A DNA stretch of 64,000 nucleotides from Limnobacter sp. (GCA_029866125.1 JARWZZ010000007.1:341519-405518), one strand, 5' to 3'; positions 30,609-44,946 are shown, counted from the first letter of the stretch. Made by a program: numbers and translations. The notes: a model not told the origin generated them from the letters alone.

Positions 30609-30629
30609 CAAAACTTGTTTTGAGTTTTC

Positions 30630-31535
30630 TCATTCCTCTTCAAAGGACTCGTATTCACCTGACAAAAAATCAATGAAGGCTCGAACTGCTGGCCGCATTC
30701 CTCTTTTGGACGGAAATACCATGTGGATGATTTCCCGCCGAAGTGACCAGTCTGGGAGCAGTCGTACCAACTCACCACTTGCCAGTTGTTTGGGAACCAT
30801 CAGGTGCGGTAATTGCACCACTCCTAAACCTGCAATCGCAGAGGTTCTTAATGCAACCATATCTGTGGTAGAGAACCTGGGTGAGTAAGGCACGACTGCT
30901 CGTTCGCCGCTGAGGTGGGTTAAGCACCATTCGAAGGTGTTTTGCGCCTGGCCGATGCCCAAGCTTGGCCAGGTTTTCAAGTCATTTGGATGGGACGGAT
31001 TTCCAAGTTTTGCAATCAATGAAGGAGATGCGAACAGGCCGAGTCCGCGGTCTGACAATATCTTCAAAATTAAATCGCTGGCCTCGAGTGGGTAGGGGCG
31101 AACCCGGATTGCCAGGTCAATCCCTTCTGCCACCACATCGACCCTGCGGTTGCTTGCCTCCAAGTCAATAGAAACATGCGCGTATTTCAGCATGAATCTA
31201 GAAATCATTCCCCCGATGTGTGCGTACAAGAGTGCCGTGGGGCAGGTCACTCGAATCAGCCCTCGGGGTTCAGCGTGGTTGTGTTCAATCAGTTCCTGTG
31301 CGTTCTCAGCCTCGATCAGCATTGATTTGCAGTGTTGCAGGTAGGCTTTGCCTATTTCAGTGACATGAAGTTTACGGGTAGACCTGTAAAGCAACTGGGT
31401 ATTAAGACGTTCTTCCAGTGTTGAAATTCGACGGCTCAGCGTGGATTTTGGGATACCCAGTGCCCTTGCTGCTGCCGAAAAGCCTTGGTGTTCTACAACC
31501 TTGGCAAAGTAGTACAAGTCATTGAGATCGATCAT
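30630..31535 (-). CDS. LysR-family regulator
   Basis: DLNDLYYFAKVVE..GFSAAAR.LG.PKS.LSRRI. Confidence 0.95.
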   Translation of the reverse strand: MIDLNDLYYFAKVVEHQGFSAAARALGIPKSTLSRRISTLEERLNTQLLYRSTRKLHVTEIGKAYLQHCKSMLIEAENAQELIEHNHAEPRGLIRVTCPTALLYAHIGGMISRFMLKYAHVSIDLEASNRRVDVVAEGIDLAIRVRPYPLEASDLILKILSDRGLGLFASPSLIAKLGNPSHPNDLKTWPSLGIGQAQNTFEWCLTHLSGERAVVPYSPRFSTTDMVALRTSAIAGLGVVQLPHLMVPKQLASGELVRLLPDWSLRREIIHMVFPSKRGMRPAVRAFIDFLSGEYESFEEE

Positions 31536-31560
31536 TTTTCGCAGTTAAGGTTCGTCTATT

Positions 31561-31576
31561 GTTCCGTAAATGGAAC
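31561..31576. promoter_or_regulatory. Palindrome GTTCC-N6-GGAAC, likely LysR site
   Basis: GTTCCGTAAATGGAAC between divergent lysR and ycaC. Confidence 0.5.
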
Positions 31577-31666
31577 AAACAGTTGTCCCAGACGCATATT
31601 ATCAAGAAACTTTGCTCCATGTAATATTCGCTTGCCTTAAAAACTCGAATCCCACAGGAGATCTAC

Positions 31667-32287
31667 ATGAAAAAGCCTTACATCCGCCTCGACAAAAATG
31701 ATGCTGCTGTTTTACTGGTGGACCACCAAGCCGGATTGCTTTCTTTGGTGCGCGACATTGAGCCTGATCGTTTTAAAAACAACGTGTTGGCTCTCGCAGA
31801 CCTTGCCAAATACTTCAAGCTACCTACCATTCTGACCACCAGTTTTGAAACAGGGCCCAACGGTCCACTGGTACCTGAGTTGAAAGATATTTTCCCTGAT
31901 GCACCTTACATCGCTCGTCCAGGTCAAATCAATGCATGGGATAACGAAGACTTCTTGAAAGCTGTTCAAGCGACTGGTAAAAAGCAATTGATTATTGCCG
32001 GTGTAGTGACTGAGGTGTGTGTGGCCTTTCCCGCACTTTCTGCACTGGAAGAGGGTTACGACGTTTTTGTAGTTACAGATGCTTCCGGCACATTCAATGC
32101 GCTGACGCGGGACTCCGCTTGGCAACGGATGTCAGATGCTGGGGCTCAATTGATGACCTGGTTCGGTGTGGCTTGTGAGTTGCATCGCGACTGGAGAAAT
32201 GACATTGAGGGACTAGGTGCGCTATTTTCCAACCATATTCCCGACTACAGGAACCTGATTACCAGTTATACATCCCAGACCAAGTAA
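31667..32287 (+). CDS. ycaC: Isochorismatase-family hydrolase YcaC
   Basis: AVLLVDHQAGL, GPNGPL.PEL, TEVCVAFPALSA. Confidence 0.92.
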   Translation: MKKPYIRLDKNDAAVLLVDHQAGLLSLVRDIEPDRFKNNVLALADLAKYFKLPTILTTSFETGPNGPLVPELKDIFPDAPYIARPGQINAWDNEDFLKAVQATGKKQLIIAGVVTEVCVAFPALSALEEGYDVFVVTDASGTFNALTRDSAWQRMSDAGAQLMTWFGVACELHRDWRNDIEGLGALFSNHIPDYRNLITSYTSQTK

Positions 32288-32323
32288 ATTCATCACTCAA
32301 GGCAAGGTGCATGTCACTCAGGT

Positions 32324-32968
32324 TCAGGAGGTGAGCCTCAACACCAAGCCCTCCAGCAGCAGCACATTCACATCAACCAAGTCGTCGATGGGGGTGGAAA
32401 AGTCTGACACGATCCATGCCATGGTCAGTTGGCTGACGGCCCCCACAATGCCAACAGTGAGCAGGTTTTCCTGTGTTTCGCTGAGGGCAAGGTGGGGGTA
32501 CAAGCCTTTAATCATCAGTAGCAACATTTGTCCGTATTCGCGAATTGTTCCCAAATAGGCCTGATTGACTCGGTCACTCACGCCCAGTACTTCAAACCAC
32601 AATGTTTTGGCCACAATGGGGTTTTGCACCTCGGTGAAAAAACGGTGAAGGGCGGGTCGCGCAACTTGGCTTACGGTCATGCCGGGCGTGATGTTGTTCA
32701 TCGATTCAAATATAGCGGCCACCATGCGCTGGGTTTCACGCTCGTACACTTGAATCAGCACATCCTCAACCGACTCGAAAGACTCATAGAAATACCGGTC
32801 GGTCAGTTTGGCATGTCTGCACAAACCCCTGACTGAAGTGCTTTTGAAGCCTATGGTGCCAAACAGCTCAAGCCCTGTGTCTAGGAATTGTTCCCTTCGG
32901 CGTTGAACGCGGTCCTCGGTGCTTTCGCCACCATACACGCGGCTATTGGGTTTGGGGTTTAAGGTCAT
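32324..32968 (-). CDS. TetR-family regulator
   Basis: RRVYGG-type N-terminus, GLELFGT.GF..TSVR.LC..A.LT.RYFYESF. Confidence 0.92.
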   Translation of the reverse strand: MTLNPKPNSRVYGGESTEDRVQRRREQFLDTGLELFGTIGFKSTSVRGLCRHAKLTDRYFYESFESVEDVLIQVYERETQRMVAAIFESMNNITPGMTVSQVARPALHRFFTEVQNPIVAKTLWFEVLGVSDRVNQAYLGTIREYGQMLLLMIKGLYPHLALSETQENLLTVGIVGAVSQLTMAWIVSDFSTPIDDLVDVNVLLLEGLVLRLTS

Positions 32969-32977
32969 GGTTTAAAT

Positions 32978-33058
32978 TTGACTACATTCCTCGTCAGATG
33001 TAAAGAAGCATTAGAGTTTTTCTACGACGATATGAATTGACTACATTTGTCGTCACAT
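32978..33058. promoter_or_regulatory. Two copies of TTGACTACATT..TCGTCA.AT (TGAC-N10-GTCA), likely TetR operators
   Basis: Copies at 32978-32999 and 33037-33058 in the divergent tetR/lipase intergenic region. Confidence 0.65.
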
Positions 33059-33104
33059 ATATTTTGGGCGGATTGGTATTCAAGTTTGCGCAGGAACACT
33101 CAAC

Positions 33105-34040
33105 ATGAAAAAAACAATTGCGTATCTCGCTTTGGCAGGTGTGACGGGTTTGGCATTGGCCAATGCAGCCACCTACCCAGCTGTGGGCGAAAAAACACTT
33201 CAGGTGGGTGGGCAAATTGAAGCGCGTGTACACGGTTTGACCGAGAAATCAGTGTTGGCGGGTGGCATAAGTCACCGCATTTATGAAGGTGGCGATGCGC
33301 AAAAGCCTACGCTGGTTTTGTTGCACGGTTACAGCGCCGACAAGGATGTGTGGCCACGGTTTGCCGCGCATTTGGTGAAGGATTTCCACATTGTTATTCC
33401 AGACATGGCTGGCCATGGCGAGACTGGTTTTCACAAGGACTGGACTTACGACATACCCAGCCAAGCCGCACGGATCGTGGCTCTGATGGATGAAATGGGT
33501 GTGGACAAATTCCACGTGGCGGGCAATTCGATGGGCGGTTTTATCACCGCCACCTTGGCTGCAAATTATCCTGGCAGGGTGATGAGTGCAACGGCCATAG
33601 ACCCCGCAGGTGTGATGCCGCCCGTGGCCAGTAAAATGGACAAAATGATTGCTGCTGGGCAGAACCCTTTTGAAGTGCAGGATCGCGCCCAGTTTGATGC
33701 TTTCTACGCCATGACGATGGCCAAGCCGCCTTACATGCCCAAGTTTGTGCTGGATGGGCTTGCAAAAACCTACCAGGACCGACGCGAGGAGTTGGCGGTG
33801 ATCTACCAAGGATTCCATCGCAAAGACATGTTGGATAACAGGTTGGCTGACATCAAAGTACCCTTTTTCCTCATTTGGGGTAAAAAAGACGAGTTGCTGG
33901 ACGTGAGTTCAGTATCTGTTTGGCAGGCGGGTGTGCCTGGCATTAAGGTGCATGTATTTGAAGAGTTGGGACACATGCCCATGGTTGAAGCCCCCAAGGC
34001 CACGGCTGATGTGGTCGGTGGTTTTTTGAAATCGATTTAA
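33105..34040 (+). CDS. Secreted alpha/beta hydrolase (lipase/esterase)
   Basis: Signal peptide; LLHGY, GNSMGG nucleophile elbow, GHMPMVE. Confidence 0.92.
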   Translation: MKKTIAYLALAGVTGLALANAATYPAVGEKTLQVGGQIEARVHGLTEKSVLAGGISHRIYEGGDAQKPTLVLLHGYSADKDVWPRFAAHLVKDFHIVIPDMAGHGETGFHKDWTYDIPSQAARIVALMDEMGVDKFHVAGNSMGGFITATLAANYPGRVMSATAIDPAGVMPPVASKMDKMIAAGQNPFEVQDRAQFDAFYAMTMAKPPYMPKFVLDGLAKTYQDRREELAVIYQGFHRKDMLDNRLADIKVPFFLIWGKKDELLDVSSVSVWQAGVPGIKVHVFEELGHMPMVEAPKATADVVGGFLKSI

Positions 34041-34117
34041 ACCAATGAGTGTAAACAGCGTGGTGGACAGGCTTAGGTTATCCACGCTGTTTAATGAAAC
34101 ACGCTCTGTTTTCGTTT

Positions 34118-34435
34118 TCACGGATTTTTAAGGCGTATGTCGTTTTTAACGGCAGAAACGCCACCAATGCTGCGTGCTAACACTTCGGCTTGGGTCATTT
34201 CAGCCACTGAGTTTACAAACCCGCTCAGTTGTACTGTTCCCTTGTAGGTTTCCACATTGATTTCGGTCGATTTGAGTGTGGGGTCATTGACGATTGCTGA
34301 CTTTAATTTGGTGGTGATCACCGAGTCATCAATGTATTCGCCCGTGCTGGGTGTGCCTGGCTTTGAATCGCATGCAACGGCTAGGAATAGGGCAAGTACT
34401 GCCAAAGTCTTGCCCAGTCTGTAATTCATTCGCAT
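34118..34435 (-). CDS. BON-domain lipoprotein (OsmY-like)
   Basis: Lipobox AVAC; GEYIDDSVITTK.K, INVETYKGTVQLSGFV. Confidence 0.92.
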   Translation of the reverse strand: MRMNYRLGKTLAVLALFLAVACDSKPGTPSTGEYIDDSVITTKLKSAIVNDPTLKSTEINVETYKGTVQLSGFVNSVAEMTQAEVLARSIGGVSAVKNDIRLKNP

Positions 34436-34491
34436 AGTGGTTACCTCCAAATTGATGGTGCCTTACACTATCGATACCTTTGAAGGTGGTC

Positions 34492-34507
34492 TGTTCGGTG
34501 TCGCACA
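34492..34507. promoter_or_regulatory. TGTTCG-N4-CGCACA, candidate Crp/Fnr-family activator site for the BON gene
   Basis: Near-palindrome; its centre lies ~41.5 nt upstream of the TSS implied by a minus-strand TAGTGT -10 at 34470-34465. Confidence 0.4.
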
Positions 34508-34749
34508 TTACTACTACTCAATCGACACTACATACTTTCTTTAATCACGCGTTCATTAAGGGCTTGAAGGGGTCGGGCATTGCCTTTGAATAGATTCCTG
34601 AACGCTTTAATTTGACTGCCACTCAATGTAATGGGTTTCTTCACCACCATGAAGCCATTTGCCATGGGGAGACTGTGGTGTTAGGTTAAGCGCTATTTTT
34701 GCCTTCGTCAGATTCCCTGGACGCAACGATGTCGATTGAGAGGTAGGTA

Positions 34750-35193
34750 ATGGGTTTGTGGTTTTTGTCGCTTATTCAAATGTTGGTTTCGGCGTATTTT
34801 TCGGCTGTGCCGGAAATGACGACCCGACAACTTTCCCCGTCGATGGTGTTGGTGGATGTGCGCAGCCCAGAGGAATTTGCTGTCAGCCATATTCAGGGTG
34901 CGGTCAACCTGCAAAGTGTGGAGGATGTGCTTCATCTAAGCCGCAAACACCCCAATCAACACATTGTTATTTACTGTTCAGTGGGTGTGCGCAGTGGCAT
35001 TGTGGCGCGTGACGTGTTGAAGCAAATCAAGACCGACTCGCCCATGGGCAAAATTTACAACCTTCAAGGCGGAATTTTCCGATGGGCCATTGAGGGCAAA
35101 GCCTTGGTCAATCAGCAGGGCAGCGTTGCGGTGGTACACGGTTTTGGCTGGCCGTGGAAGTACCTTTTACCTGCCGAAATAAGGGGTCAATGA
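34750..35193 (+). CDS. Rhodanese-like domain protein
   Basis: VDVRSPEEFAVSHIQGAVN, IYCSVGVRS, YNLQGGIF.W. Confidence 0.9.
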   Translation: MGLWFLSLIQMLVSAYFSAVPEMTTRQLSPSMVLVDVRSPEEFAVSHIQGAVNLQSVEDVLHLSRKHPNQHIVIYCSVGVRSGIVARDVLKQIKTDSPMGKIYNLQGGIFRWAIEGKALVNQQGSVAVVHGFGWPWKYLLPAEIRGQ

Positions 35194-35339
35194 GTAAGGT
35201 ATTAAAAAGCGAAAAATCATGCACTCAGTGGCCAGATTTCACCTGATTAAAATAGTTGAGCAGTGCAGTAATAGTTACTGCAGTTTGTGTTAGCTTATTG
35301 CTTGCAATAACTAAAAATCAGTGTCGAGGAGAGAGACGA

Positions 35340-36827
35340 ATGAGTTGCTACATGTCTACCAAGGAAATCGCGGCCTATGGACCTTACAAACTTGAAAATG
35401 ACGGACTAACCCCCAAACAACGCGCGCGCAAACGGATGGAGGCGCAAGGCTTGATGACCAAGGGCCAGCATTTGGGCCACCGCTGGGCCATTGGTTGCGT
35501 TTCCTTAGAAATTACCCAGCGCTGCAATTTGGACTGCACATTGTGTTACCTGTCTGAAAGTGCAGAAGCAGTCAAAGACATTCCCATCGACGAAGTGTTC
35601 CGTCGCATTGACGAAATTCGTGCCATGTACGGCCCCAATACGGACATTCAAATCAGTGGCGGTGACCCCACTTTGCGCCAGCGTGATGAGCTGATGGCCA
35701 TCGTGCGTAAAGTACGTGATTCCGGCATGCGCCCATCCTTGTTTACCAATGGCATCAAGGCCAGCCGCGACATGCTGGAAGAATTGGTCGAAAACGGTTT
35801 GGTGGATGTGGCCTTCCATGTGGATTTGACCCAAGAGCGCAAGGGCTACACCACCGAGGTGGAGTTAAACGAGGTGCGCCAAGAGTACATCGAACGCGCC
35901 CGCGGTTTGCCTTTGTCCATCTTTTTCAACACCACGGTGTACGACGGTAACTTCCATGAAATACCGAAGATTGTTGATTTCATGGTGAAGAACAGCGACA
36001 TTGTGCGACTCGCTTCCTTCCAGCTGCAGGCGGACACTGGCCGTGGCGTGTTGACTGAGCGTGATTTCATGATCAGCCAAACCACAGTGGCTGACCAAAT
36101 TCGCAAGGGTGCGGGTTGTAATATCAATTTTGATTCCATGGACATTGGCCACTCCAAGTGCAACAAGTACGCCATGACTTTGGTGGCTGACAACAAAGTA
36201 CATGATGTGTTTTACAACACTGAATATGTGCAAGATGTACTGGCCACTATGGGCAGCGACATTGTGTTTGACCGCCAAAACAAGCGTCAGGTGGTTGAGC
36301 AAATGGCCAATTGGGTCATCAAAAACCCCAAGTTGTTGCCAAAAAGCTTGGGTTGGTTGAAAGACAAAACCAAGGACATGGCAATGGATATTTTCCGTGC
36401 CAAAGGCAAGGTCAATAAGTTGTCTTTCTTCATCCACAACTTTATGGATGCCTGCCATCTGGAAAAAGACCGCATCGACTCTTGCGTGTTTATGGTGGCT
36501 ACAGCTGAAGGCCCAATCAGCATGTGTTTGAACAATGCCAAGCGCGATGACTTTTTGCTCAAGCCGATTGCCATGCCGCAAGCCGAAGGTGTGATCAAAT
36601 TCTGGAACCCCATCACTGGCAAACTACAAGACAACAAGCCCGAGCGCCTTGTGGTGGAGCACACTCGCAAAACTGCGCGCGGGCGTACCAAAGAGAAAAT
36701 GGACGCCGAACGTTTGGCAGCCAAAGCAAACTTTGGTAGAACCGAGAGTGATGTGCTGCAAGATGATGTTTCAGTGAATGAGATTGCAATGAATGAGGCG
36801 GTGGCAAAGCAAACTGTAGAGAGCTGA
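35340..36827 (+). CDS. Radical SAM protein, Tes/MJ0619-like family
   Basis: CNLDCTLC (CxxxCxxC), QISGGDPT, FTNGI; C-terminal FMD..L..DR..SC.F...G..SMC..N block; ATG at 35340 after GAGGAG. Confidence 0.85.
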   Translation: MSCYMSTKEIAAYGPYKLENDGLTPKQRARKRMEAQGLMTKGQHLGHRWAIGCVSLEITQRCNLDCTLCYLSESAEAVKDIPIDEVFRRIDEIRAMYGPNTDIQISGGDPTLRQRDELMAIVRKVRDSGMRPSLFTNGIKASRDMLEELVENGLVDVAFHVDLTQERKGYTTEVELNEVRQEYIERARGLPLSIFFNTTVYDGNFHEIPKIVDFMVKNSDIVRLASFQLQADTGRGVLTERDFMISQTTVADQIRKGAGCNINFDSMDIGHSKCNKYAMTLVADNKVHDVFYNTEYVQDVLATMGSDIVFDRQNKRQVVEQMANWVIKNPKLLPKSLGWLKDKTKDMAMDIFRAKGKVNKLSFFIHNFMDACHLEKDRIDSCVFMVATAEGPISMCLNNAKRDDFLLKPIAMPQAEGVIKFWNPITGKLQDNKPERLVVEHTRKTARGRTKEKMDAERLAAKANFGRTESDVLQDDVSVNEIAMNEAVAKQTVES

Positions 36828-36828
36828 T

Positions 36829-37659
36829 ATGAATACACCCAGCAAATTCCAAGTCAGCCCCGAGGGCAACACACTGAGTCGGTGGATACGTTTGGCACTG
36901 ACTTTGTTATTGCCCAGTTTGGGTTTGCTGGGTTGTTCAACTTTGATTGCACCGCCTCAATCTGCGGAAAGCGCTGCTTCGTATCAACAGGCCATGGCCA
37001 CGTTTGATGCCGTGTTGAAGAAGCATGTGGATGCGCAGGGCAGGGTTAACTTTGTTGCAATTGCTCAAGCACCTCAGGCCTTGGAGTCGGTGGTGCGTTT
37101 CATCGCCAATGAGTCACCTGCCAATCGGCCTGCAGTGTACGACACACCGCAGAAAGTATTGGCCTACCACATCAATGCCTACAACGCCTTGGCCATGTAT
37201 GCAGTGGTTAAAGAGGGTATTCCTCAAGCACTCAAAGGCTTTACGTTTTTCCGCTTTTTCTTGTTCAACCGCGTGGTTGTGGGTGGCGAGTCCATGTCGC
37301 TATATTCCTATGAGAATAAGATAATCCGAAAACTGGGCGACCCCCGCATTCACTTTGCCTTAAATTGCATGAGTGTGGGCTGCCCCCAATTGCCGCAAGA
37401 TATTTTTGAACCGACCAAGTTGAATCAACAACTGGATGCGGAGGCTCGCGAATTTTTTGCGGACCCACGGCAACTTGTTGTGAAAGACAATGTGGTCATG
37501 GTGTCCGAAATTCTGAAGTTTTTCACTGAGGATTTTTTGGCTGCTGCGCCATCCCTTCAGGCTTACATCAACAAGTACGCACCCACCCCCGTACCGATGG
37601 ACAGCAAAATTGAATTCATCAAGTACGATTGGACGGTAAACCGCTGGCCAAATACTTAG
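36829..37659 (+). CDS. DUF547 domain lipoprotein
   Basis: LAYHINAYNA, DPRIHFALNCMSVGCP, YDWTVN; lipobox LLGC. Confidence 0.92.
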   Translation: MNTPSKFQVSPEGNTLSRWIRLALTLLLPSLGLLGCSTLIAPPQSAESAASYQQAMATFDAVLKKHVDAQGRVNFVAIAQAPQALESVVRFIANESPANRPAVYDTPQKVLAYHINAYNALAMYAVVKEGIPQALKGFTFFRFFLFNRVVVGGESMSLYSYENKIIRKLGDPRIHFALNCMSVGCPQLPQDIFEPTKLNQQLDAEAREFFADPRQLVVKDNVVMVSEILKFFTEDFLAAAPSLQAYINKYAPTPVPMDSKIEFIKYDWTVNRWPNT

Positions 37660-37688
37660 TCAAACATTTAGTCAAACACTTAGTCAAC
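37654..37688 (+). repeat. 12-bp tandem repeat x3 spanning the DUF547 stop codon
   Basis: ACTTAGTCAAAC / ATTTAGTCAAAC / ACTTAGTCAAC. Confidence 0.85.
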
Positions 37689-37718
37689 AACACTCAATAA
37701 GCCAGTGGGGGGGTATCC

Positions 37719-38132
37719 ATGAACAAAGGTTTTGTTGGGTTGGCCCGCACCTTTTTTGCCTTATTGATGTTGGCCAGTGCCACTGGAAAACTCTTGGACA
37801 TGCCCGGTTTTTACGGCATCGTCCGCACCTACCAAATGATGCCTGAATGGCTGATTATTCCCGGCGCTTGGGTGCTGGCTTTGTTTGAGTTGGCCTTGGG
37901 TTTTGCCTTGTGCAGTAAAGCATGGCGCAAAGTCGTTTGGGTGCTGCTGCCCTTGCATCTGTTTTATTTGGTGGGCCTTAGCCAAGCACTTGTGCGTGGA
38001 TTGGTCATACCCAACTGCGGGTGTTTTGGTGTGTACTGGGGGCGGCCACTTACGCCGTACACCCTGCTGGAGGACATTGCCTTGCTTGTCCTTGCATTTA
38101 CCTTGTATCGACTTGCACCCAAGGTTCAGTGA
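37719..38132 (+). CDS. MauE/DoxX family membrane protein
   Basis: GKLLD..GF...V..Y, ELALG, NCGCFG. Confidence 0.88.
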   Translation: MNKGFVGLARTFFALLMLASATGKLLDMPGFYGIVRTYQMMPEWLIIPGAWVLALFELALGFALCSKAWRKVVWVLLPLHLFYLVGLSQALVRGLVIPNCGCFGVYWGRPLTPYTLLEDIALLVLAFTLYRLAPKVQ

Positions 38133-38137
38133 ACTGC

Positions 38138-38719
38138 ATGCGCTTCTCCATTCCCCGTTTTTGTTCCGTTTTTGTGTTCGGGTCCGTATTGGCTGTTTGC
38201 TTCAGCTTGCCTGCGCATGCCTTGCAAGTGGATGGGGTTGAACTACCCGATACGTTTGCCTATGAAGGGCAAACCTTGACCGCCAATGGTTCGGGCACGC
38301 GCTTGTATTCTTTTCTCAAAATTAAAGTGTATTCAGCAACGCTTTATCTCCCTGTTAAAAACAGCAATCCCGAACAAATTCTGGCCAGCAAACTGCCACG
38401 TGTGCTCCACCTTAAAATGCGTGTGGATGCCAAGCGGGATGATGCCATGGAGGCTTGGGCATACTACCTGAAGCAGAACTGCAGTAGCCCTTGCAAAATC
38501 AACCCGCAATCTCAAGCCCGTTTTTTGGATGCGCAAGCCAACCTGAAGGAAGGCGACACTGAAACCTACTTTTTCACAGCGCAGGGTTTGATGATCAAGC
38601 GCAATGGGCAAGATGTTTTGAATATTGGAGATGCTGATTTTGCGAATCTGGTTTTGGCGGGTTGGCTGGGTAAAGAGCCCACCACTGAGGCATTGAAGGC
38701 CAAATTGCTTGGAAACTAA
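38138..38719 (+). CDS. Chalcone-isomerase-fold (fatty-acid-binding-like) periplasmic protein
   Basis: Signal peptide; L.ANGSG.R.Y.F.KIKVY.A.LY, FA.LVL..WLG..P. Confidence 0.85.
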   Translation: MRFSIPRFCSVFVFGSVLAVCFSLPAHALQVDGVELPDTFAYEGQTLTANGSGTRLYSFLKIKVYSATLYLPVKNSNPEQILASKLPRVLHLKMRVDAKRDDAMEAWAYYLKQNCSSPCKINPQSQARFLDAQANLKEGDTETYFFTAQGLMIKRNGQDVLNIGDADFANLVLAGWLGKEPTTEALKAKLLGN

Positions 38720-38768
38720 TCCATGCAATATTCCTGTGTGAGTGGAGGCTAGGCGACCATTTTTATAT

Positions 38769-38795
38769 AAAAAAAACCACCCATGGAAGGGTGGT
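38769..38795 (-). terminator. Intrinsic terminator for the DUF1302 operon
   Basis: ACCACCC-N6-GGGTGGT hairpin with a T run on the minus strand. Confidence 0.7.
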
Positions 38796-38889
38796 GTCGA
38801 GCGTAGTCCATCTTTCGGAGTTGATAACCACGGAGGCCTGAAAAGCCCCTAGACGAGAAGACATTCCTTGGGGTTTCTTACCCGATCAA

Positions 38890-40755
38890 TCAAAAAGCCT
38901 TGGATGCTGTGAGGGCGAGGAAATCCCTGTCGCGCAGTACGTCATAGTCAGCAGCATTGATGTATTTGGTGTAGTTCACCGCTGCTTTGGTGGCGGAGTC
39001 AAATTCAAAGGTGACACCCAAGCCCAATGTTTGGCGACCTTCATTGAAACTCTGACCGGGTTCAGGTGACCAGCCTTCCACATCATGCGAGAAAGCAATA
39101 CTTGGCAACATTGCAATGCCTTTGTAGACATCCCGATAATTGCCGGCTAACCGCAATCGATAGCCCCAAGAGAAGTCTGTCACAAAGCCTGCATTGAAGG
39201 TGTTGCCTGCATCGGCACCCCCACCAAACACGGAGGATCGACCATAACGCTGGGTGCGTGTATCGGGTAATCCACTGACAAACACGGCACCCACTTCGCC
39301 GGCAAGACTGTATGCCGATGCACCCAGAATCCGATCAAATTGGCGGATAAATGAGGATTGGATTTGGGTGACATTGAATCGGTCGTAACCTTTGACGATT
39401 GAACCATTTGGCGCCGCTGCATAACGGCTGCTGAATGTAGAACCCGTGCCAGGTCGATTGGCTTGGTTATCGATTGTAGACACTTGATTGCTACCGTTGA
39501 ACACAGGTATGGATTGTCCGAAAATTCCAGCTCTGAGCAATTCCACCGTGCTGATCTGGATGGGTACATCCATTGCACGACTGACTTCTCCAGCCCATGC
39601 CCAGCCTTTGTAGTTGGTGGAGAAACTACCACCAATGATGGAAATGTTTTCTGGGAAGTCCACCACATATTGACCGTCATAGGATGCGTTTTGCACAGGT
39701 GCGCCTGCGGTGGTGACGCCACGCGCAAAGGTGCTTCCGTCAGATGCTTTTTTCAAACTGAAGAGTGGTAAACGATTGTGGTAATTCATGTAATAAGCGC
39801 CGAATTCGGCACCCAAACTGGAGGCATATTTTCTAAATGCCAAGCCGAATTGGCCACCGTTTTTCGGATCTTGATCTGGACCACGGTTGATCACAAAACC
39901 GGCTGGGTAATTGTTTTGATCCGCAGCCGAAGCGGCAAACGCCAAGCGGTTGCAGCCATCGGCACCCACATCGGAGCTTGAGAAATAGGTGCCACACAAC
40001 TCGGGTACTGAGTTGCGCCACTTCAGTTGGTAAAAGGCTTCCAGACTGGTGGATTCTGTGGTCGAGATATTGGCATACAGCATTTCGGATGGGGTGAAGG
40101 CTTCTTTCAATTCTGCACCGGGCCTGCGCAGTGCAGACACATCAATTGGATTCAAGCCAGAGATCGGGCTTTGAATAAAGAAGCTTTCGCCCCATCCGAT
40201 AACCTGACGACCCAAGCGGATGCTGGACTCCTTGCCCATTAACTGAGTGTTCCAGTATCCATAGGCTTCCAACAAATTAATACCGTCAAATTTTGCATAA
40301 GGTGCTGCGCCCGAATCATTCAGGTGACGGTCACGTGCATTGGATGTCGGCTCATGGCCATGGTAGACGCCGCTGTTGTTTAAAGTGGAGTCATAAAACC
40401 ATTTGACCCGAGTGAAGGCACCGTAGTTGTCCCTTTTCAGCTCCAGTTCATGGATGCCTTTCACAATGGTTGAGAACGCATCGCCTTTGTCGAAGTTCAG
40501 GTTGCCGTCATCGCCTGTATTGGATTTACCAGTGCCTTTGGTTCCATCCCGCGAAGAGTTGCCGGGCGAGTACAATGCACGGTCGCGGTTTTCCATGCGA
40601 ATGCTTTGACCGACGCTGACTGTGCTGTTGATGGTTAAATCCATGTCACCGATTCTCAGCTCAACCGCATATACGGAGGTGCTACCAAGCAGGATCAAGC
40701 CTGTCGCCAATTCGGCTGCCACTCTAGTGGCTTTGTGTTGTTGAGTATTCATCAT
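38890..40755 (-). CDS. DUF1302 family outer-membrane beta-barrel
   Basis: DDGNLNFDKGD, RLGRQV.GWGES.F, LEAFYQ, RDRDF....S..F C-terminus. Confidence 0.92.
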   Translation of the reverse strand: MMNTQQHKATRVAAELATGLILLGSTSVYAVELRIGDMDLTINSTVSVGQSIRMENRDRALYSPGNSSRDGTKGTGKSNTGDDGNLNFDKGDAFSTIVKGIHELELKRDNYGAFTRVKWFYDSTLNNSGVYHGHEPTSNARDRHLNDSGAAPYAKFDGINLLEAYGYWNTQLMGKESSIRLGRQVIGWGESFFIQSPISGLNPIDVSALRRPGAELKEAFTPSEMLYANISTTESTSLEAFYQLKWRNSVPELCGTYFSSSDVGADGCNRLAFAASAADQNNYPAGFVINRGPDQDPKNGGQFGLAFRKYASSLGAEFGAYYMNYHNRLPLFSLKKASDGSTFARGVTTAGAPVQNASYDGQYVVDFPENISIIGGSFSTNYKGWAWAGEVSRAMDVPIQISTVELLRAGIFGQSIPVFNGSNQVSTIDNQANRPGTGSTFSSRYAAAPNGSIVKGYDRFNVTQIQSSFIRQFDRILGASAYSLAGEVGAVFVSGLPDTRTQRYGRSSVFGGGADAGNTFNAGFVTDFSWGYRLRLAGNYRDVYKGIAMLPSIAFSHDVEGWSPEPGQSFNEGRQTLGLGVTFEFDSATKAAVNYTKYINAADYDVLRDRDFLALTASKAF

Positions 40756-40782
40756 CTGTCTCCTCGATTTTCTTCTTGTGAC

Positions 40783-42144
40783 TCAGCGACCCATACGGCG
40801 CAGGGCAGATGTTGAGAAATCTGCAGCAGCGAATTTTTTACCGAACTCCACGGGCTTCTCTTCATTGGTCAAGGCATTGACCAAATAGCGACGAGCTTGA
40901 AGGTCGTACATCACTTCGCCGGCCTGAGCAAAGGCAGGGGCGTTGTAGAACTGGACGCCATAGACCTCGCGTACACGCCACAAACCGCCGCGTGAGTCGT
41001 ATTGGTCAGCGTGCAAAATAGTCCAGGAATCTTCATCGATGTAAAACACACGCTTGGAATAAATATGGCGCGCACCGGGTTTTAGATTGGCCTCGACCAC
41101 CCACACGCGGTGGGGCTCATAACGCACCAAATCCTGATTGACATGAGACTGTCCGAGAATTTGTGAGTACTTCAAGTCCTTGCTCGTCATTTTGTAGTTG
41201 TTGTAGGCCACGTACATTTCTTTTTTACCAACCAGTTTCCATGTGTAGCGGTCGGGTGCACCGTTGAATCCATTGAAGTCATCATTGGTGCGAAGGCCGT
41301 CCGCACCCGTACCTGGGCTGTCATACGCGATTTCAGGCGCGCGAATGACACGTCGCTGTCCAGGGTTGTACTGCCATGCCAACCTGGGTTCTGCAACCTG
41401 ATCCAGAGGTTCATGCACCAGAATCACCTCACCTGCCGCATTGGCAGGGGCGGTGGTTACACTCATGTAATAGAAGTTACGGTTGGGTTCCGGATCAGAC
41501 AGAAATGCAGCCGAGGCGATGCTCTCCTTGCGTTTGCCCAAGGTATATACCCCATTGGTTTGTACAGGGAAGTCAGCCGATTCTCTGATGATCGATCCAC
41601 CCAAATCACGCATAATGTGATTCCAGATGACCTGCACGCCTTCGGTTGGAACAGGAAAGGGAACCGTGGATTTTTTCAGGTTTTGCAGTCCATTTCCGCC
41701 TGCTGCCAGTTTGATGTTTGCAGCTTCCTCTTTGGCGTATTTGTACACATCAGGCCGATAAGCTGCTGTGCGATGCGAGGGGTACACATTCATTTTGAAT
41801 GTGGGGTAACGCTTCATCATCTCCATTTGGCCGGGAGCCAGCTTGTCTTTGTGCTGCTCCATGTTGGCGGCTGTGATGGTCACTGTGGGTTTTTCTGATG
41901 CAAAAGGGTCTAAGTAGCCTTTGGCGGGGTTAAAACCTGCAACAGGCTTATCCAAGCCACCTTCCCATGAAGGAATGGTTCCCGACGCATTGCCTGCTTT
42001 CTCCGCGCCCATGGGTGTTAGTGTACTGCCCAGTTTGGAATAATCCTGCGCCAATGCGGGCGCACCGATTGAGCCCAAGATTGAGCCCAATATTAATCCC
42101 AGAATGGTAAAACTCAATCGACTTTCGGTTTTCTTGACTTTCAT
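40783..42144 (-). CDS. DUF1329 family periplasmic protein
   Basis: LTPMGAEKAGNASGTIP.W.GG, AWQYNPGQRRV.RAP, YIDEDSW. Confidence 0.93.
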   Translation of the reverse strand: MKVKKTESRLSFTILGLILGSILGSIGAPALAQDYSKLGSTLTPMGAEKAGNASGTIPSWEGGLDKPVAGFNPAKGYLDPFASEKPTVTITAANMEQHKDKLAPGQMEMMKRYPTFKMNVYPSHRTAAYRPDVYKYAKEEAANIKLAAGGNGLQNLKKSTVPFPVPTEGVQVIWNHIMRDLGGSIIRESADFPVQTNGVYTLGKRKESIASAAFLSDPEPNRNFYYMSVTTAPANAAGEVILVHEPLDQVAEPRLAWQYNPGQRRVIRAPEIAYDSPGTGADGLRTNDDFNGFNGAPDRYTWKLVGKKEMYVAYNNYKMTSKDLKYSQILGQSHVNQDLVRYEPHRVWVVEANLKPGARHIYSKRVFYIDEDSWTILHADQYDSRGGLWRVREVYGVQFYNAPAFAQAGEVMYDLQARRYLVNALTNEEKPVEFGKKFAAADFSTSALRRMGR

Positions 42145-42182
42145 TGTTTCTTCTCCCTTTGATTTTTGTCGTTTAATTTGGG

Positions 42183-43919
42183 CTAGAGTTGCCACACCAC
42201 CGGTTTTGCACAATTCACCCAGCCTTCGATTTGCTCTGAATACCTCTCTTCAATGATGTTTCTTCGAATTTTCATTGTGGGGGTGAGGAATCCGTTGGCT
42301 ATGGTCCATTGCTGGTTTACAACCACCAGGCAGGCCAATTGCTCATGCGGGTCCAGGGAGGTGTTCACTGCGTTTTTTAGATCGGTGAGCTCATGTGTCA
42401 ATTTGCTGACCTCATCTGGACTCATCTTCAACACAGTTTCGGCATTCAGCATCAGTAGCCCGACAGGTTGTGCTTCACCTGCGCCCATGACACAAGCCAC
42501 TTCGATGATCTGATTGGTCATCAGTTTGTTTTCGATCGGTGCAGGGGCTACATACTTGCCCTTGCTGGTTTTAAACAACTCCTTAATTCGACCTGTGATT
42601 CGAAGTCTTCCTAGCTCATCCAATGAGCCCATATCCCCAGTTTTGAAGTAACCGTCTGAAGTGAATGCGTCAAGTGTCTTTTCGGGTTCAAGGTAATAAC
42701 CCAGCATACGTGCGGGGCTTTTGATCAAGACTTCACCTTGGGTGTCAATTCGGCGCTCAACGCCATCCAGGGGCTGACCCACATAGCCAATGCGTTTGGC
42801 ATCAGGCCTTGAAAAATGGGAGTAAGAGAAGTCCTCCGACATGCCATAGCCCTCTAGCAATTCGAGTCCAATATCCCAGTACCATTGGAGTAAGCGGGTT
42901 GGAAGAGGGGCAGAGCCCGATACTGCAAATTTGACTTGATCCAACCCTAGGCTTTCCAGCACAGCTTGTCGGCAGGCTGATGCGGTGTCAGGATTCTGCA
43001 GTTGTTGATTCAGCTCTGCTTCTGACACACTACGGAAAATGCTTTGCTGAAATTTCACCCAGAGCCGTGGTACGCAATGGAAGATGGTGGGGCGAGCCCG
43101 CTTGATGTCCCGATTGAATGTAGCCAGAGATTCGATAAAGAATATTTGGCATCCATGGCGCAATGCGGTGGCAAAGACAACCGCGCCCTCAAACACATGG
43201 GCCAGCGGTAAATAGGACAGCATCCGATCTTCAAGGCACACTGGAGCAACTTGGGAATAAGCCTGAGATGAAACCTGAAAGGATTTGAAACTGAGCATCA
43301 CGCCTTTGGGCACACCGGTTGTTCCCGAGGTGTAAACAATGGTTGCAAGGTCATCTTCATGGGGCATGTTTACATGGGCAACCGGGCATTCTGTACTGAT
43401 GATTGATTCCCAGCATTGAATGCTTTTGGATTGCAGTTCCAGCGAGGTGCCCGGTAAACAGACCACCGGAGTATCGATATTCAATCCATCAGCCATGGTT
43501 TGCCAATCATCCACCTGACCCAGAATAATCAGCCGGCTGTCGCTGTGCTCCAAAATGTACTGAAAGGTTTTGGGATTGAGTGATGGGTAGACTGGTACAC
43601 TGACATGGCCTGCCATCCAGATTGCAAGGTCTGCCATCATCCAGTGGGCTGAATTTTTACCCAAAAGCGCAATCCTTGAGCCTTTGGGATACTCCAAAGA
43701 CTGGAGATAAGACGCCATGCGGCGCACCTGGGCTGCGGTCTCTTTCCATGTGTAGTCTTGCACTCCGGTGGCAAGTGGCTGAGACAGAAATACCGAGTCT
43801 GGTTGAGATTTCTCCCAGTGCAACAACCCCTCCAGCGGAGTCCACTGATCGTGCCGCAATCCGACAGGATTTGACAGAGTGGAGGAGGGGGTATTGGCCC
43901 TATTTAATACATCAAGCAT
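42183..43919 (-). CDS. Long-chain acyl-CoA synthetase (AMP-binding)
   Basis: YTSGTTGVPKG, EGYGMSE, TGDMG, GRIKELFKTSKGKYVAP. Confidence 0.93.
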   Translation of the reverse strand: MLDVLNRANTPSSTLSNPVGLRHDQWTPLEGLLHWEKSQPDSVFLSQPLATGVQDYTWKETAAQVRRMASYLQSLEYPKGSRIALLGKNSAHWMMADLAIWMAGHVSVPVYPSLNPKTFQYILEHSDSRLIILGQVDDWQTMADGLNIDTPVVCLPGTSLELQSKSIQCWESIISTECPVAHVNMPHEDDLATIVYTSGTTGVPKGVMLSFKSFQVSSQAYSQVAPVCLEDRMLSYLPLAHVFEGAVVFATALRHGCQIFFIESLATFNRDIKRARPTIFHCVPRLWVKFQQSIFRSVSEAELNQQLQNPDTASACRQAVLESLGLDQVKFAVSGSAPLPTRLLQWYWDIGLELLEGYGMSEDFSYSHFSRPDAKRIGYVGQPLDGVERRIDTQGEVLIKSPARMLGYYLEPEKTLDAFTSDGYFKTGDMGSLDELGRLRITGRIKELFKTSKGKYVAPAPIENKLMTNQIIEVACVMGAGEAQPVGLLMLNAETVLKMSPDEVSKLTHELTDLKNAVNTSLDPHEQLACLVVVNQQWTIANGFLTPTMKIRRNIIEERYSEQIEGWVNCAKPVVWQL

Positions 43920-43970
43920 TTTGATCGTTCTTTTAGGTAGTTTGAGCTGCAAGACTCATGGTGATTTTCA

Positions 43971-44711: not shown

Positions 44712-44946
44712 TCTTTTCCCTTCATTCAATTGAAAGCCTGTTCTCCAAGAACGATGTGGAAATTGTAGGTGGGGGGTTCTTGTGGGGGCAGTCGGATATT
44801 TCCAGTAATCGGCTCAGACAATTCCTATAAGGCGTGGGCACTTTGGGATCTGTTCAATCCTTGTCTTTGAAGATATGCTCAGATATTTCCTACACGGTAT
44901 GTAGACGATTCTGACTACGCCCATTTTGGTCAGGAAATTAATATGA

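What the first reader, a model, noticed from the sequence alone, without database searches (positions are those of the whole stretch)
34750..38719. Uncharacterised operon built around a Tes/GDGT-MAS-like radical SAM with envelope and lipid-binding partners
Seen: co-oriented rhodanese, radical SAM (CxxxCxxC), DUF547 lipoprotein (1 nt gap), MauE/DoxX with CGC, and a chalcone-isomerase-fold protein (5 nt gap). The radical SAM has GHSKCNKY and FMDACHLEKDRIDSCVFMVATAEGPISMCLNN, which by my recollection resemble the C-terminal Cys-bearing blocks of the MJ0619/Tes tetraether-lipid synthase family. It lacks that family's N-terminal Cys-rich metal domain. Known: Tes couples lipid tails by C-C bond formation, and CHI-fold proteins can bind fatty acids. 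DUF547 and rhodanese also accompany ArsS arsenosugar clusters, but no glycosyltransferase or arsM is present here. Inference: an undescribed lipid- or envelope-modifying radical SAM pathway in a likely aerobic bacterium.
Basis: partly seen in the sequence, partly recalled or inferred. Interest (0 to 1): 0.65.

Follow-up and report, generated by a model that had tools for sequence, protein, structure and literature searches.

The report
Tes-like radical SAM/DUF547 envelope operon
A Limnobacter-like bacterium carries a real five-gene operon built around an uncharacterised relative of the archaeal tetraether-lipid synthase and four exported cysteine-bearing proteins; comparative genomics ties it to the widespread ArsS/TIGR04283 "arsenosugar-type" gene set, so it is a testable candidate for unknown lipid or organo-arsenic chemistry.

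Summary
The operon is rhodanese (34750-35193), radical SAM (35340-36827), DUF547 lipoprotein (36829-37659), MauE/DoxX-like (37719-38132) and CHI-like (38138-38719), all on the + strand with the stated 1-nt and 5-nt gaps.

What the enzyme is:
- It is neither Tes nor TrsS (90.7 and 110 bits; cut-offs 450 and 490).
- GDGT-MAS is by far its closest solved structure (Foldseek E 4e-16 over 407 columns).
- It lacks the N-terminal rubredoxin and [4Fe-4S]N domains.
- It keeps two Cys of the C-terminal cluster site and has an invariant His where GDGT-MAS has the labile Met439.

Comparative evidence:
- The radical SAM/DUF547 pair is nearly invariant (76/80 loci).
- ArsS lies beside it in at least 19/80 loci (0.15 expected), spread over at least 12 changes on the tree.
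- A natural TIGR04283-glycosyltransferase::radical SAM fusion exists.
- TIGR04283 is present in 47/56 genomes that carry the enzyme, against 51% background.
- ArsM is not enriched, and it is absent from this genome.
- This genome holds ArsS, TIGR04283/TIGR04282, the DedA-flavoreductase and a second DUF547 beside a patatin, on other contigs.

Best reading (about 0.4): an accessory, lipid-directed radical step of the ArsS/TIGR04283 pathway, followed by an envelope thiol relay. The chemistry is unproven, and the arsenic link is indirect for this organism.

The parts
34750..35193 (+). Rhodanese-domain protein (147 aa) with an N-terminal hydrophobic segment, probably a membrane anchor or export signal. 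The catalytic loop is C76-SVGVRS.
   Evidence: PF00581 E 3.5e-16. Best NCBIfam hit is NF045521 'rhoda_near_glyco', 83.5 bits, below the cut-off of 145. C76 is invariant in 6/6 orthologues. It lies upstream of the radical SAM only in the window's clade.
35264..35282 (.). Perfect 8-bp-arm palindrome TGCAGTAA-TAG-TTACTGCA in the 146-nt rhodanese/radical SAM spacer. It could be an operator or a weak hairpin.
   Evidence: It is not conserved in the Limnobacter litoralis spacer, so its function is unknown.
35340..36827 (+). Tes/GDGT-MAS-like radical SAM enzyme (495 aa from ATG 35340; the longest ORF starts at TTG 35256). The CxxxCxxC motif is at C90/C94/C97. Other invariant residues are C81, C302 (GHSxCN), H394 (FFIHNFMDA), C410 and C424 (numbering of the 523-aa ORF).
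   Evidence: AlphaFold2 model with pLDDT 86.8. Foldseek top hits are 7TOL/7TOM at E 4e-16, 407 columns, TM 0.53; the next fold (viperin) is at E 1.7e-7.
36829..37659 (+). DUF547 lipoprotein (276 aa; lipobox LLGC, Ser at +2). It carries the invariant motif H175-x3-N179-C180-x4-C185-P186.
   Evidence: PF04784. It lies next to the radical SAM in 76/80 loci, downstream in nearly all. Invariant columns come from 46 sequences. AlphaFold2 pLDDT is 92.8, with no PDB fold match (best E 1.1).
37719..38132 (+). MauE/DoxX-like four-helix membrane protein (137 aa) with an invariant N99-C-G-C-F-G-V105.
   Evidence: PF07291 E 7.5e-19. Present in 35/80 loci. The motif is invariant in 34/34.
38138..38719 (+). 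Exported chalcone-isomerase-like protein (193 aa; signal peptide ending AHA|L) with a mostly conserved C115-x3-C119 pair.
   Evidence: PF16036 Chalcone_3 E 1e-26. Present in 26/80 loci. Cys conservation is 24/27 and 21/27.
38776..38795 (.). GC-rich hairpin between the operon end and the convergent DUF1302 gene. The T-run is on the minus strand.
   Evidence: It terminates the convergent gene and may also stop the operon's transcript; this was not tested.

Best explanation
The operon encodes an accessory module of the widespread ArsS / TIGR04283 / TIGR04282 'arsenosugar-type' system.

Proposed mechanism:
1. The cytoplasmic enzyme is a trimmed relative of the tetraether synthase GDGT-MAS. It cleaves SAM at its CxxxCxxC cluster.
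2. The 5'-deoxyadenosyl radical abstracts hydrogen from an unactivated carbon of a hydrophobic substrate. That substrate would be a lipid or isoprenoid tail, or a lipid-linked sugar made by the TIGR04283 transferase.
3. The substrate radical is captured at a remodelled C-terminal Fe-S site. Two Cys are shared with GDGT-MAS, C302 is a further candidate ligand, and an invariant His replaces the labile Met439. The result is a new C-heteroatom (S or As) or C-C bond.
4. The product crosses the inner membrane.
5. In the envelope it is bound or processed by four exported or membrane proteins that all carry conserved cysteines: the rhodanese, DUF547 (CxxxxCP), the MauE-like protein (NCGCFGV, probably the membrane redox partner) and the CHI-like protein (CxxxC, probably a carrier of hydrophobic ligand).

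Shown here: gene structure, family placement, fold, conserved residues, pair conservation, gene adjacency, the fusion and the co-occurrence.

Inferred: the lipid nature of the substrate, the second cluster, the direction of the thiol relay, and any involvement of arsenic in this particular organism.
For: Family and fold:
- Best HMMs are TrsS (110 bits) and Tes (90.7 bits).
- GDGT-MAS is the best solved relative by sequence (E 3.6e-19, plus a collinear weak FMDA block at chain 450-494).
- It is also the best by fold (E 4e-16, 407 of 491 residues; the next fold is nine orders of magnitude weaker).
- With the 20-residue tag offset (RS Cys at chain 118/122/125 = native C98/C102/C105), the family's invariant H394 aligns with Met439, C410 with C455 and C424 with C470 (PMC9433317).

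Module:
- The radical SAM/DUF547 pair occurs in 76/80 loci and in 5/5 independent genomes of the class sample.

Link to the ArsS/TIGR0428x system:
- ArsS lies within 7 kb in at least 19/80 loci, against 0.15 expected (P about 1e-34). This needs at least 12 changes on the tree.
- ArsM, ArsC, TIGR04283, TIGR04282 and a nucleoside-hydrolase-like gene also recur nearby.
- A 712-aa TIGR04283::radical SAM fusion is seen on three contigs.
- TIGR04283 is present in 47/56 genomes with the enzyme, against 154/300 background (Fisher 1.4e-6).
- Four Burkholderiales loci hold DUF547b, DedA-flavoreductase, patatin and ArsS divergent from radical SAM, DUF547, MauE and CHI. This genome has homologues of every part (patatin by Pfam only); those aligned are 40-65% identical, and they lie on four contigs.
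- DUF547, DedA-flavoreductase and CHI-like genes also accompany ArsS in genomes without the Tes-like enzyme.

Envelope thiols: invariant or near-invariant Cys in all four partners.
Against: - No substrate, product or expression data exist.
- In this window none of the arsenic-type genes is adjacent, and the genome (93% complete) has no ArsM.
- ArsM-like genes are not enriched among genomes with the enzyme (16/56 against 95/300).
- ArsS and TIGR04283 are each in about half of all genomes of the class. Genome-level co-occurrence is therefore weak evidence: 6/6 in the class sample gives p 0.012 and 0.017.
- Alphaproteobacterial carriers lack ArsS and use a different second radical SAM.
- The names 'arsenosugar biosynthesis glycosyltransferase' for TIGR04282 and TIGR04283 are annotation by association, not tested function.
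- The HMM match to the C-terminal block is weak on its own (6.9 bits).
Confidence: 0.4

Rival explanations
1. Sulfur (or selenium) insertion that has nothing to do with arsenic. The substrate radical attacks a sulfide of the C-terminal cluster, as in the trapped C-S intermediate of GDGT-MAS or in LipA and BioB. This yields a thiolated lipid, quinone or isoprenoid. The rhodanese, DUF547 and MauE-like proteins then form the sulfur or thiol relay that handles or cross-links it in the envelope.
For: - GDGT-MAS forms a C-S bond with its C-terminal cluster (PMC9433317), and that site is partly conserved here.
- A rhodanese with a standard six-residue sulfurtransferase loop opens the operon.
- The nearest HMM, TrsS, is a (seleno)protein family. 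The rhodanese also weakly matches (seleno)protein rhodanese families.
- All envelope partners carry conserved Cys.
- ArsM is absent from this genome.
Against: - The rhodanese is present in only 5/80 loci.
- It appears to be anchored or exported, so it could not re-sulfurate a cytoplasmic cluster.
- This reading does not explain the repeated adjacency to ArsS, ArsM and ArsC, or the fusion to TIGR04283.
- There is no in-frame TGA, so the enzyme is not a selenoprotein.
Confidence: 0.15
2. A true Tes/Mss-type tail-to-tail C-C coupling enzyme that makes membrane-spanning lipids (diabolic-acid or brGDGT-type) in aerobic bacteria.
For: - The closest characterised enzyme is GDGT-MAS.
- Bacterial Tes homologues have been proposed as membrane-spanning-lipid synthases, and the synthase of aerobic producers is still unknown (PMC13159169, PMC13459092).
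Against: - The score is far below the Tes cut-off (90.7 against 450).
- The rubredoxin and [4Fe-4S]N domains are absent.
- Met439 and Tyr459, strictly conserved in archaeal GDGT-MAS, are His and Val here (PMC9433317).
- The family is in only 2% of the class sample.
- The obligatory exported dithiol partner and the links to ArsS and TIGR04283 have no role in C-C coupling.
Confidence: 0.08
3. Maturation of a protein or peptide. The radical SAM would modify a precursor or one of the exported partners, with the MauE-like protein acting as in methylamine dehydrogenase maturation.
For: - MauE is needed for maturation of the methylamine dehydrogenase small subunit (established knowledge).
- Many radical SAM enzymes with auxiliary clusters are peptide maturases, and there are weak HMM matches to several.
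Against: - There is no SPASM or twitch domain hit.
- No small precursor ORF is conserved in the operon.
- The fold beyond the core matches GDGT-MAS, not the maturases.
- The MauE-like gene is present in only 35/80 loci.
Confidence: 0.04
4. A pterin methyltransferase, as many database names state ('7,8-dihydro-6-hydroxymethylpterin dimethyltransferase').
For: Source names attached to many homologues.
Against: - The name comes from the earlier assignment of MJ0619, which the structure and activity work on GDGT-MAS could not corroborate (PMC9433317).
- There is no pterin or methanopterin context in any locus examined.
Confidence: 0.01

Closest known systems
GDGT-MAS / tetraether lipid synthase Tes (M. 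jannaschii MJ0619; PDB 7TOL/7TOM; NCBIfam NF045702)
   Same: - A radical SAM core plus a C-terminal domain of the same fold (Foldseek E 4e-16, 407 columns).
- The FMDA...C...C block is collinear.
- Two of the C-terminal cluster Cys positions are kept.
   Different: - No rubredoxin domain and no [4Fe-4S]N domain.
- Met439 is replaced by an invariant His, Tyr459 by Val and C438 by Ile.
- 90.7 bits against a cut-off of 450.
- It occurs in bacteria, mostly aerobic lineages.
- It is always paired with an exported DUF547 protein.
- It is linked to ArsS and TIGR04283 genes rather than to ether-lipid genes.
TrsS radical SAM (seleno)protein (NCBIfam NF045646; Haft & Tolstoy 2025, paper not held here)
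   Same: It is the best-scoring HMM, and the match runs almost end to end (residues 74-427 against profile positions 80-430 of 441). It belongs to the same Tes-related branch.
   Different: - 110 bits against a cut-off of 490.
- No selenocysteine.
- No partner methyltransferase in this operon.
- Different lineages.
ArsS (TIGR04167), the 5'-deoxyadenosyl-transferring radical SAM of arsenosugar synthesis, with TIGR04283 and TIGR04282
   Same: It is the genomic partner: adjacent in at least 19/80 loci, and the same genome encodes ArsS (443 bits), TIGR04283 (234 bits) and TIGR04282 (139 bits). The TIGR04283 transferase is fused to this enzyme family in some bacteria.
   Different: It is a different radical SAM family; TIGR04167 is not among the 25 best of the window enzyme's 51 NCBIfam hits. 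The window operon itself holds none of these genes. ArsM is absent from this genome.
DoxX-SseA (rhodanese) membrane thiol-oxidoreductase complex of Mycobacterium tuberculosis, and MauE of methylamine dehydrogenase maturation (from my own knowledge)
   Same: A small DoxX/MauE-type membrane protein works together with a rhodanese or with exported thiol proteins.
   Different: No SodA partner and no mau genes. The CGC motif and the DUF547 partner are specific to this module. This comparison was not tested here.

Membership tests
Tes / GDGT-MAS (NF045702) | HMM score above the curated cut-off (450 bits) | tested here: not met
   90.7 bits, and the match covers the radical SAM core only (residues 75-282).
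Tes / GDGT-MAS (NF045702) | N-terminal rubredoxin (C9x2C12x20C33x2H36) and [4Fe-4S]N (C73, C77, C80, His) domains | tested here: not met
   The alignment to 7TOL begins at native residue 92. The N-terminus is a conserved helical extension with no Cys, apart from C81 next to the core (PMC9433317).
Tes / GDGT-MAS (NF045702) | C-terminal auxiliary cluster domain with the labile Met439 and conserved Tyr459 | tested here: not met
   The fold and two Cys (C410, C424) are kept. Met439 aligns with an invariant His, Tyr459 with Val and C438 with Ile.
Tes / GDGT-MAS (NF045702) | Overall fold of the core plus the C-terminal domain | tested here: met
   Foldseek to 7TOL/7TOM: E 4e-16, 407-410 columns, TM 0.53.
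Tes / GDGT-MAS (NF045702) | C-C coupling of lipid tails | not testable with these tools
   This needs lipid analysis or an enzyme assay.
TrsS (NF045646) | HMM score above the cut-off (490 bits) | tested here: not met
   110.4 bits.
TrsS (NF045646) | Selenocysteine in the enzyme | tested here: not met
   The ORF has no in-frame stop codon.
ArsS (TIGR04167) | HMM score above the cut-off (300 bits) | tested here: not met
   TIGR04167 is not among the 25 best of the window enzyme's 51 NCBIfam hits. The genome's true ArsS is elsewhere, at C19, with 443 bits.
SPASM/twitch radical SAM maturases | SPASM or twitch Cys-rich C-terminal domain | tested here: not met
   Only PF04055 and PF13353 are found. 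The C-terminal fold matches GDGT-MAS.
Radical SAM superfamily (PF04055) | CxxxCxxC motif and a partial TIM-barrel core | tested here: met
   C90/C94/C97 are invariant. PF04055 scores 60.4 bits against a cut-off of 29.5.
DUF547 (PF04784) | Pfam score above the gathering threshold | tested here: met
   80.3 bits against 27. The H-x3-NC-x4-CP motif is invariant.
MauE (PF07291) | Pfam score above the gathering threshold | tested here: met
   68.7 bits against 27.
MauE (PF07291) | A mau (methylamine utilisation) gene context | tested here: not met
   No mau genes lie in the 30000-44000 stretch of the window read or in the related loci clustered.
Chalcone-isomerase-like (PF16036 Chalcone_3) | Pfam score above the gathering threshold | tested here: met
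   94.4 bits against 27.
Chalcone-isomerase-like (PF16036 Chalcone_3) | Binding of a fatty acid or other hydrophobic ligand | not tested
   No ligand-binding analysis was possible with these tools.
Rhodanese 'rhoda_near_glyco' (NF045521) | HMM score above the cut-off (145 bits) | tested here: not met
   83.5 bits. The generic rhodanese domain, PF00581, is met.

The most novel reading that the evidence does not exclude
The family would be a third kind of organo-arsenic radical SAM enzyme, after ArsS and ArsL. It would be an 'arsenolipid synthase' that activates the terminal carbon of a lipid tail as Tes does. It would couple that carbon to a trivalent arsenical, or to the ArsS/TIGR04283-derived arsenosugar, giving arsenic-containing hydrocarbons, fatty acids or lipids whose biosynthesis is unknown. 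The exported vicinal-dithiol proteins (DUF547, the MauE-like and the CHI-like protein) would bind or reduce the arsenical in the envelope.
Probability: 0.12. Interest if true: 0.9.

Novelty: new variant of a known kind. Interest (0 to 1): 0.6.

Why it matters
Bacterial relatives of the tetraether synthase are acknowledged in the literature but have no assigned reaction (PMC9433317 discussion; PMC13459092). DUF547 has no known function or solved fold in any organism.

- This work defines a compact module, present in at least 567 species genomes, and a specific set of partner genes.
- It predicts which residues to mutate (C302, H394, C410, C424 of the enzyme; C180 and C185 of DUF547).
- It names an experimentally tractable host (cultivable Limnobacter).
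- If the link to ArsS and TIGR04283 reflects chemistry, it opens the unknown late steps of arsenosugar or arsenolipid formation.
- If it does not, it still points to a new radical modification of envelope lipids, handled by a previously unseen periplasmic thiol system.
- The ArsS/TIGR04283 core is in about half of the sampled genomes of this class, mostly without ArsM. Its annotation as purely 'arsenosugar' therefore deserves scrutiny.

Tried and rejected
- **Rfam scan of 33900-39100:** no riboswitch or other RNA family at E <= 0.1.
- **Sigma-70 scan:** no promoter-like site.
- **Palindrome at 35264-35282:** not conserved in L. litoralis, so I dropped it as a regulatory lead.
- **Genome-level co-occurrence with ArsM:** no enrichment.
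- **Genome-level co-occurrence with ArsS:** weak, because ArsS is in 48% of the background. The 50 handles were also chosen mostly from loci without an adjacent ArsS, which biases that fraction downward.
- **Fold search for DUF547:** no PDB relative.
- **PDB sequence searches for the CHI-like and MauE-like proteins:** nothing useful.
- **Model coordinates:** not available in the Python box. Cys-Cys distances and tunnels could not be measured.
- **Haft & Tolstoy 2025 paper defining TrsS:** not held.
- **P0122 (radical SAM-DUF547 'fusion'):** it keeps a lipobox-like linker and is a single sequence. I do not rely on it.
- **Carotenoid cluster beside the fusion gene in L089:** seen once only, so I treat it as a lead.
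- **The 28-aa hydrophobic N-terminal extension of the TTG-35256 ORF:** rejected as part of the protein, because homologues lack it.

Full report
**1. The observation**

The window holds five co-oriented ORFs exactly as described:
- rhodanese, 34750-35193;
- radical SAM, ending at 36827;
- DUF547, 36829-37659;
- MauE-like, 37719-38132;
- CHI-like, 38138-38719 within the longer ORF 38021-38719.

Pfam assigns all five above threshold. The 1-nt and 5-nt gaps, the CxxxCxxC motif, the GHSKCNKY and FMDAC...SMC blocks, the DUF547 lipobox and the CGC motif are all present.

The radical SAM gene most likely starts at ATG 35340, behind GGAGAGAGA. This matches the closest homologue's MSCYMS start. The start leaves a 146-nt spacer after the rhodanese gene.

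G+C content is that of the surroundings. The nearest named organism is Limnobacter litoralis: 82% identity for the enzyme, with the same five-gene synteny.

**2. What the enzyme is**

NCBIfam places it nearest to TrsS (110 bits; cut-off 490) and Tes (90.7 bits; cut-off 450), far below both cut-offs. MoaA, PqqE and NirJ-type models score lower and match the core only.

A profile of 23 homologues finds GDGT-MAS (7TOL) as the best solved relative, at E 3.6e-19. A second, weak, collinear match covers the FMDA...C...C block.

An AlphaFold2 model (pLDDT 86.8) hits 7TOL/7TOM at E 4e-16 over 407-410 columns. The next folds (viperin, PqqE, BlsE) reach about 1e-7 and align only the core.

The N-terminal rubredoxin and [4Fe-4S]N domains of GDGT-MAS are absent.

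The deposited chain carries a 20-residue offset: its RS Cys at 118/122/125 are native C98/C102/C105 (PMC9433317). Using that offset with the HMM alignment gives these equivalences:

| This family (523-aa ORF numbering) | GDGT-MAS |
|---|---|
| H394 (invariant) | Met439, the labile cluster ligand |
| C410 | C455 |
| C424 | C470 |
| Ile | C438 |
| Val | Tyr459 |

Further invariant Cys are C81 and C302. The catalytically important C-terminal site therefore looks retained but remodelled. That is an inference, because I had no coordinates to check it.

**3. The family and its partners**

- More than 3,400 proteins match at E <= 1e-5 in the 90%-clustered collection.
- 134 representatives at 50% identity match at E <= 1e-30.
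- At least 567 species genomes encode a relative.
- Only 6 of 300 evenly drawn genomes of the class carry it.

In the best 80 loci the gene is paired with DUF547 in 76. A MauE-like gene follows in 35 and a CHI-like gene in 26. A rhodanese is present in only 5, which are the window's own clade plus one other. The pair is also present in all five other carriers from the class sample.

Conserved residues in the partners:
- DUF547 has an invariant H-x3-N-C-x4-C-P motif and a lipoprotein signal.
- Its high-confidence model (pLDDT 92.8) has no PDB fold relative.
- The MauE-like protein keeps NCGCFGV in 34/34 sequences.
- The CHI-like protein keeps a CxxxC pair in most sequences.
- The rhodanese keeps its catalytic Cys.

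One cytoplasmic Fe-S enzyme is thus coupled to up to four envelope proteins with reactive cysteines.

**4. The wider neighbourhood**

De novo clustering of neighbouring ORFs, followed by NCBIfam scans, identified these recurrent neighbours:
- ArsS (TIGR04167, 453 bits);
- ArsM-type methyltransferases;
- ArsC;
- TIGR04283 and TIGR04282 (the 'arsenosugar biosynthesis glycosyltransferases');
- a nucleoside-hydrolase-like protein;
- a DedA/VTT-flavoprotein disulfide reductase fusion;
- a second DUF547 paralogue;
- a patatin.

ArsS lies within 7 kb in at least 19/80 loci, where 0.15 is expected. The trait needs at least 12 changes on the enzyme tree, so it is not one inherited arrangement. ArsM and ArsC adjacency is confined to Bdellovibrionia/Myxococcia clades, plus one gammaproteobacterial MT-radical SAM-DUF547 cassette.

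Four Burkholderiales loci show a complete divergon: DUF547b, DedA-reductase, patatin and ArsS on one strand, and radical SAM, DUF547, MauE and CHI on the other.

A 712-aa protein fuses a full TIGR04283 domain (230 bits) to this enzyme (50% identity). It occurs on three contigs. Its locus has DUF547 upstream and a carotenoid gene cluster downstream.

Alphaproteobacterial operons end with a different small radical SAM (319 aa; Rv1681-like 93 bits, ArsS 56 bits) instead of ArsS. That gene often lies next to TIGR04283.

**5. This genome**

The 3.28-Mb assembly encodes:
- ArsS (443 bits, contig C19, between thiG and thiD);
- a TIGR04283 (234 bits)-TIGR04282 (139 bits)-DUF3047 operon on C2;
- the DedA-reductase fusion on C2;
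- a second DUF547 beside a patatin on C17.

These are orthologues of the parts that lie contiguous in the Burkholderiales divergons. No ArsM-like gene is found, although L. litoralis has one.

**6. Controls that temper the arsenic reading**

| Gene | Class background (300 genomes) | Genomes with the enzyme |
|---|---|---|
| ArsS | 145 (48%) | 6/6 in the class sample (p 0.012) |
| TIGR04283 | 154 (51%) | 47/56 (84%; Fisher 1.4e-6); 6/6 in the class sample (p 0.017) |
| ArsM-like | 95 (32%) | 16/56 (29%), no enrichment |

- The TIGR04283 figure includes alphaproteobacteria that lack ArsS.
- The ArsS association is unclear in the wider set. The 50 handles were chosen mostly from loci without an adjacent ArsS, and 26 of them have ArsS elsewhere.
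- In 20 ArsS loci from genomes without the enzyme, TIGR04282 (12) and TIGR04283 (11) are the usual neighbours. DedA-reductase (6), ArsM-like (6), DUF547 (3) and CHI-like (1) genes also recur.

The picture is a very common core (a small radical SAM plus TIGR04283 and TIGR04282) with a rare add-on (the Tes-like enzyme plus DUF547, with or without MauE and CHI). The tie is tightest to the TIGR04283 transferase, not to arsenic methylation.

**7. Mechanism proposed**

By analogy with GDGT-MAS, the enzyme abstracts hydrogen from an inert carbon of a hydrophobic substrate and traps the radical at its C-terminal cluster (PMC9433317).

Three observations favour a membrane lipid, or a lipid-linked product of the TIGR04283 transferase, that is then flipped to the periplasmic side:
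- the fusion to the transferase;
- the exported location of all obligatory partners;
- the recurrence of lipid-type accessories (the DedA domain, the patatin, and CHI-fold or, according to earlier scan notes, SRPBCC proteins).

DUF547 and the MauE-like protein would form a DsbA/DsbB-like or dithiol-binding pair acting on the product.

Whether the new bond is C-S, C-As or C-C cannot be decided here. I put 0.4 on the overall reading, and 0.12 on the specific arsenolipid-synthase version.

**8. Rivals**

- Arsenic-independent sulfur insertion: 0.15.
- True tail-to-tail coupling: 0.08.
- Protein maturation: 0.04.
- The legacy pterin-methylase annotation: 0.01.

The remainder is unassigned.

**9. 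Literature**

The GDGT-MAS paper notes bacterial homologues of unknown function (PMC9433317). A 2022 study found no Tes homologues in most bacterial producers of membrane-spanning lipids (PMC13159169). A 2026 review of lipid-modifying radical SAM enzymes mentions no arsenic-linked Tes relative (PMC13459092). DUF547 appears only as an uncharacterised domain fused to glutaredoxin in plants (PMC13621322). Searches that combined DUF547 or Tes homologues with arsenic found nothing relevant.

Earlier notes of this scan reached similar readings in other genomes. I derived the arsenic link independently first, and I treat those notes as leads only.

**10. Verdict**

This is a real, uncharacterised operon. 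It is a new variant within the Tes-related radical SAM branch and is not a member of Tes, TrsS or ArsS. It is functionally tied to the ArsS/TIGR04283 system by adjacency, fusion and co-occurrence. Its chemistry is unknown and readily testable.

Noticed in passing
window 38890-44729 (minus strand): A DUF1302 (621 aa) / DUF1329 LolA-like (476 aa) outer-membrane pair lies convergent to the operon. An AMP-forming acyl-CoA-synthetase-like gene (589 aa) and an SDR (252 aa) lie upstream of the pair on the same strand. This looks like a set for uptake or activation of hydrophobic substrates. It is not conserved next to the operon in relatives.
   Followed up: partly
window 34118-34450 (-) and 33105-34040 (+): A BON-domain (OsmY-like) lipoprotein gene is transcribed divergently from the operon across a 300-nt spacer. 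An exported alpha/beta hydrolase lies beyond it. Neither is conserved beside the operon in L. litoralis.
   Followed up: partly
class sample of 300 genomes: ArsS (TIGR04167) and TIGR04283 are each present in about half of evenly sampled genomes of the class. ArsM-like genes are in about a third. The 'arsenosugar' core is far more common than its literature suggests, and it often lacks an arsenic methyltransferase.
   Followed up: partly
L085:12091-13050; also L009, L010, L014, L024, L031: Alphaproteobacterial versions of the operon end with a second, unnamed 319-aa radical SAM (Rv1681-like 93 bits; ArsS 56 bits). It seems to take the place of ArsS and often lies next to TIGR04283.
   Followed up: partly
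L089:8039-19340: A DUF547 gene and the TIGR04283::radical SAM fusion are followed on the same strand by a complete carotenoid glycoside-ester-type cluster: lycopene cyclase, two desaturases, phytoene synthase, an acyltransferase, a GT2, Caroten_synth and an FA_desaturase. This may hint at an isoprenoid substrate. It was seen in one locus (a second, similar place on another contig was not shown).
   Followed up: no
own genome, L082:4662-6995 (G000 C2:31.6-34.0 kb): TIGR04283, TIGR04282 and DUF3047 form a tight operon just downstream of mgtE. DUF3047 is another uncharacterised member of the ArsS-type system.
   Followed up: no
L088:7081-8996: In one metagenomic relative, two ECF-type sigma factor genes and a DUF3379 (anti-sigma-like) gene lie directly upstream of the radical SAM/DUF547 pair. 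This suggests envelope-stress control in that lineage.
   Followed up: no
window 29613-30608 (+): A methyltransferase-like ORF (331 aa) has an N-terminal CxxC...CxxC zinc-ribbon. It is unrelated to the operon as far as I can see.
   Followed up: no
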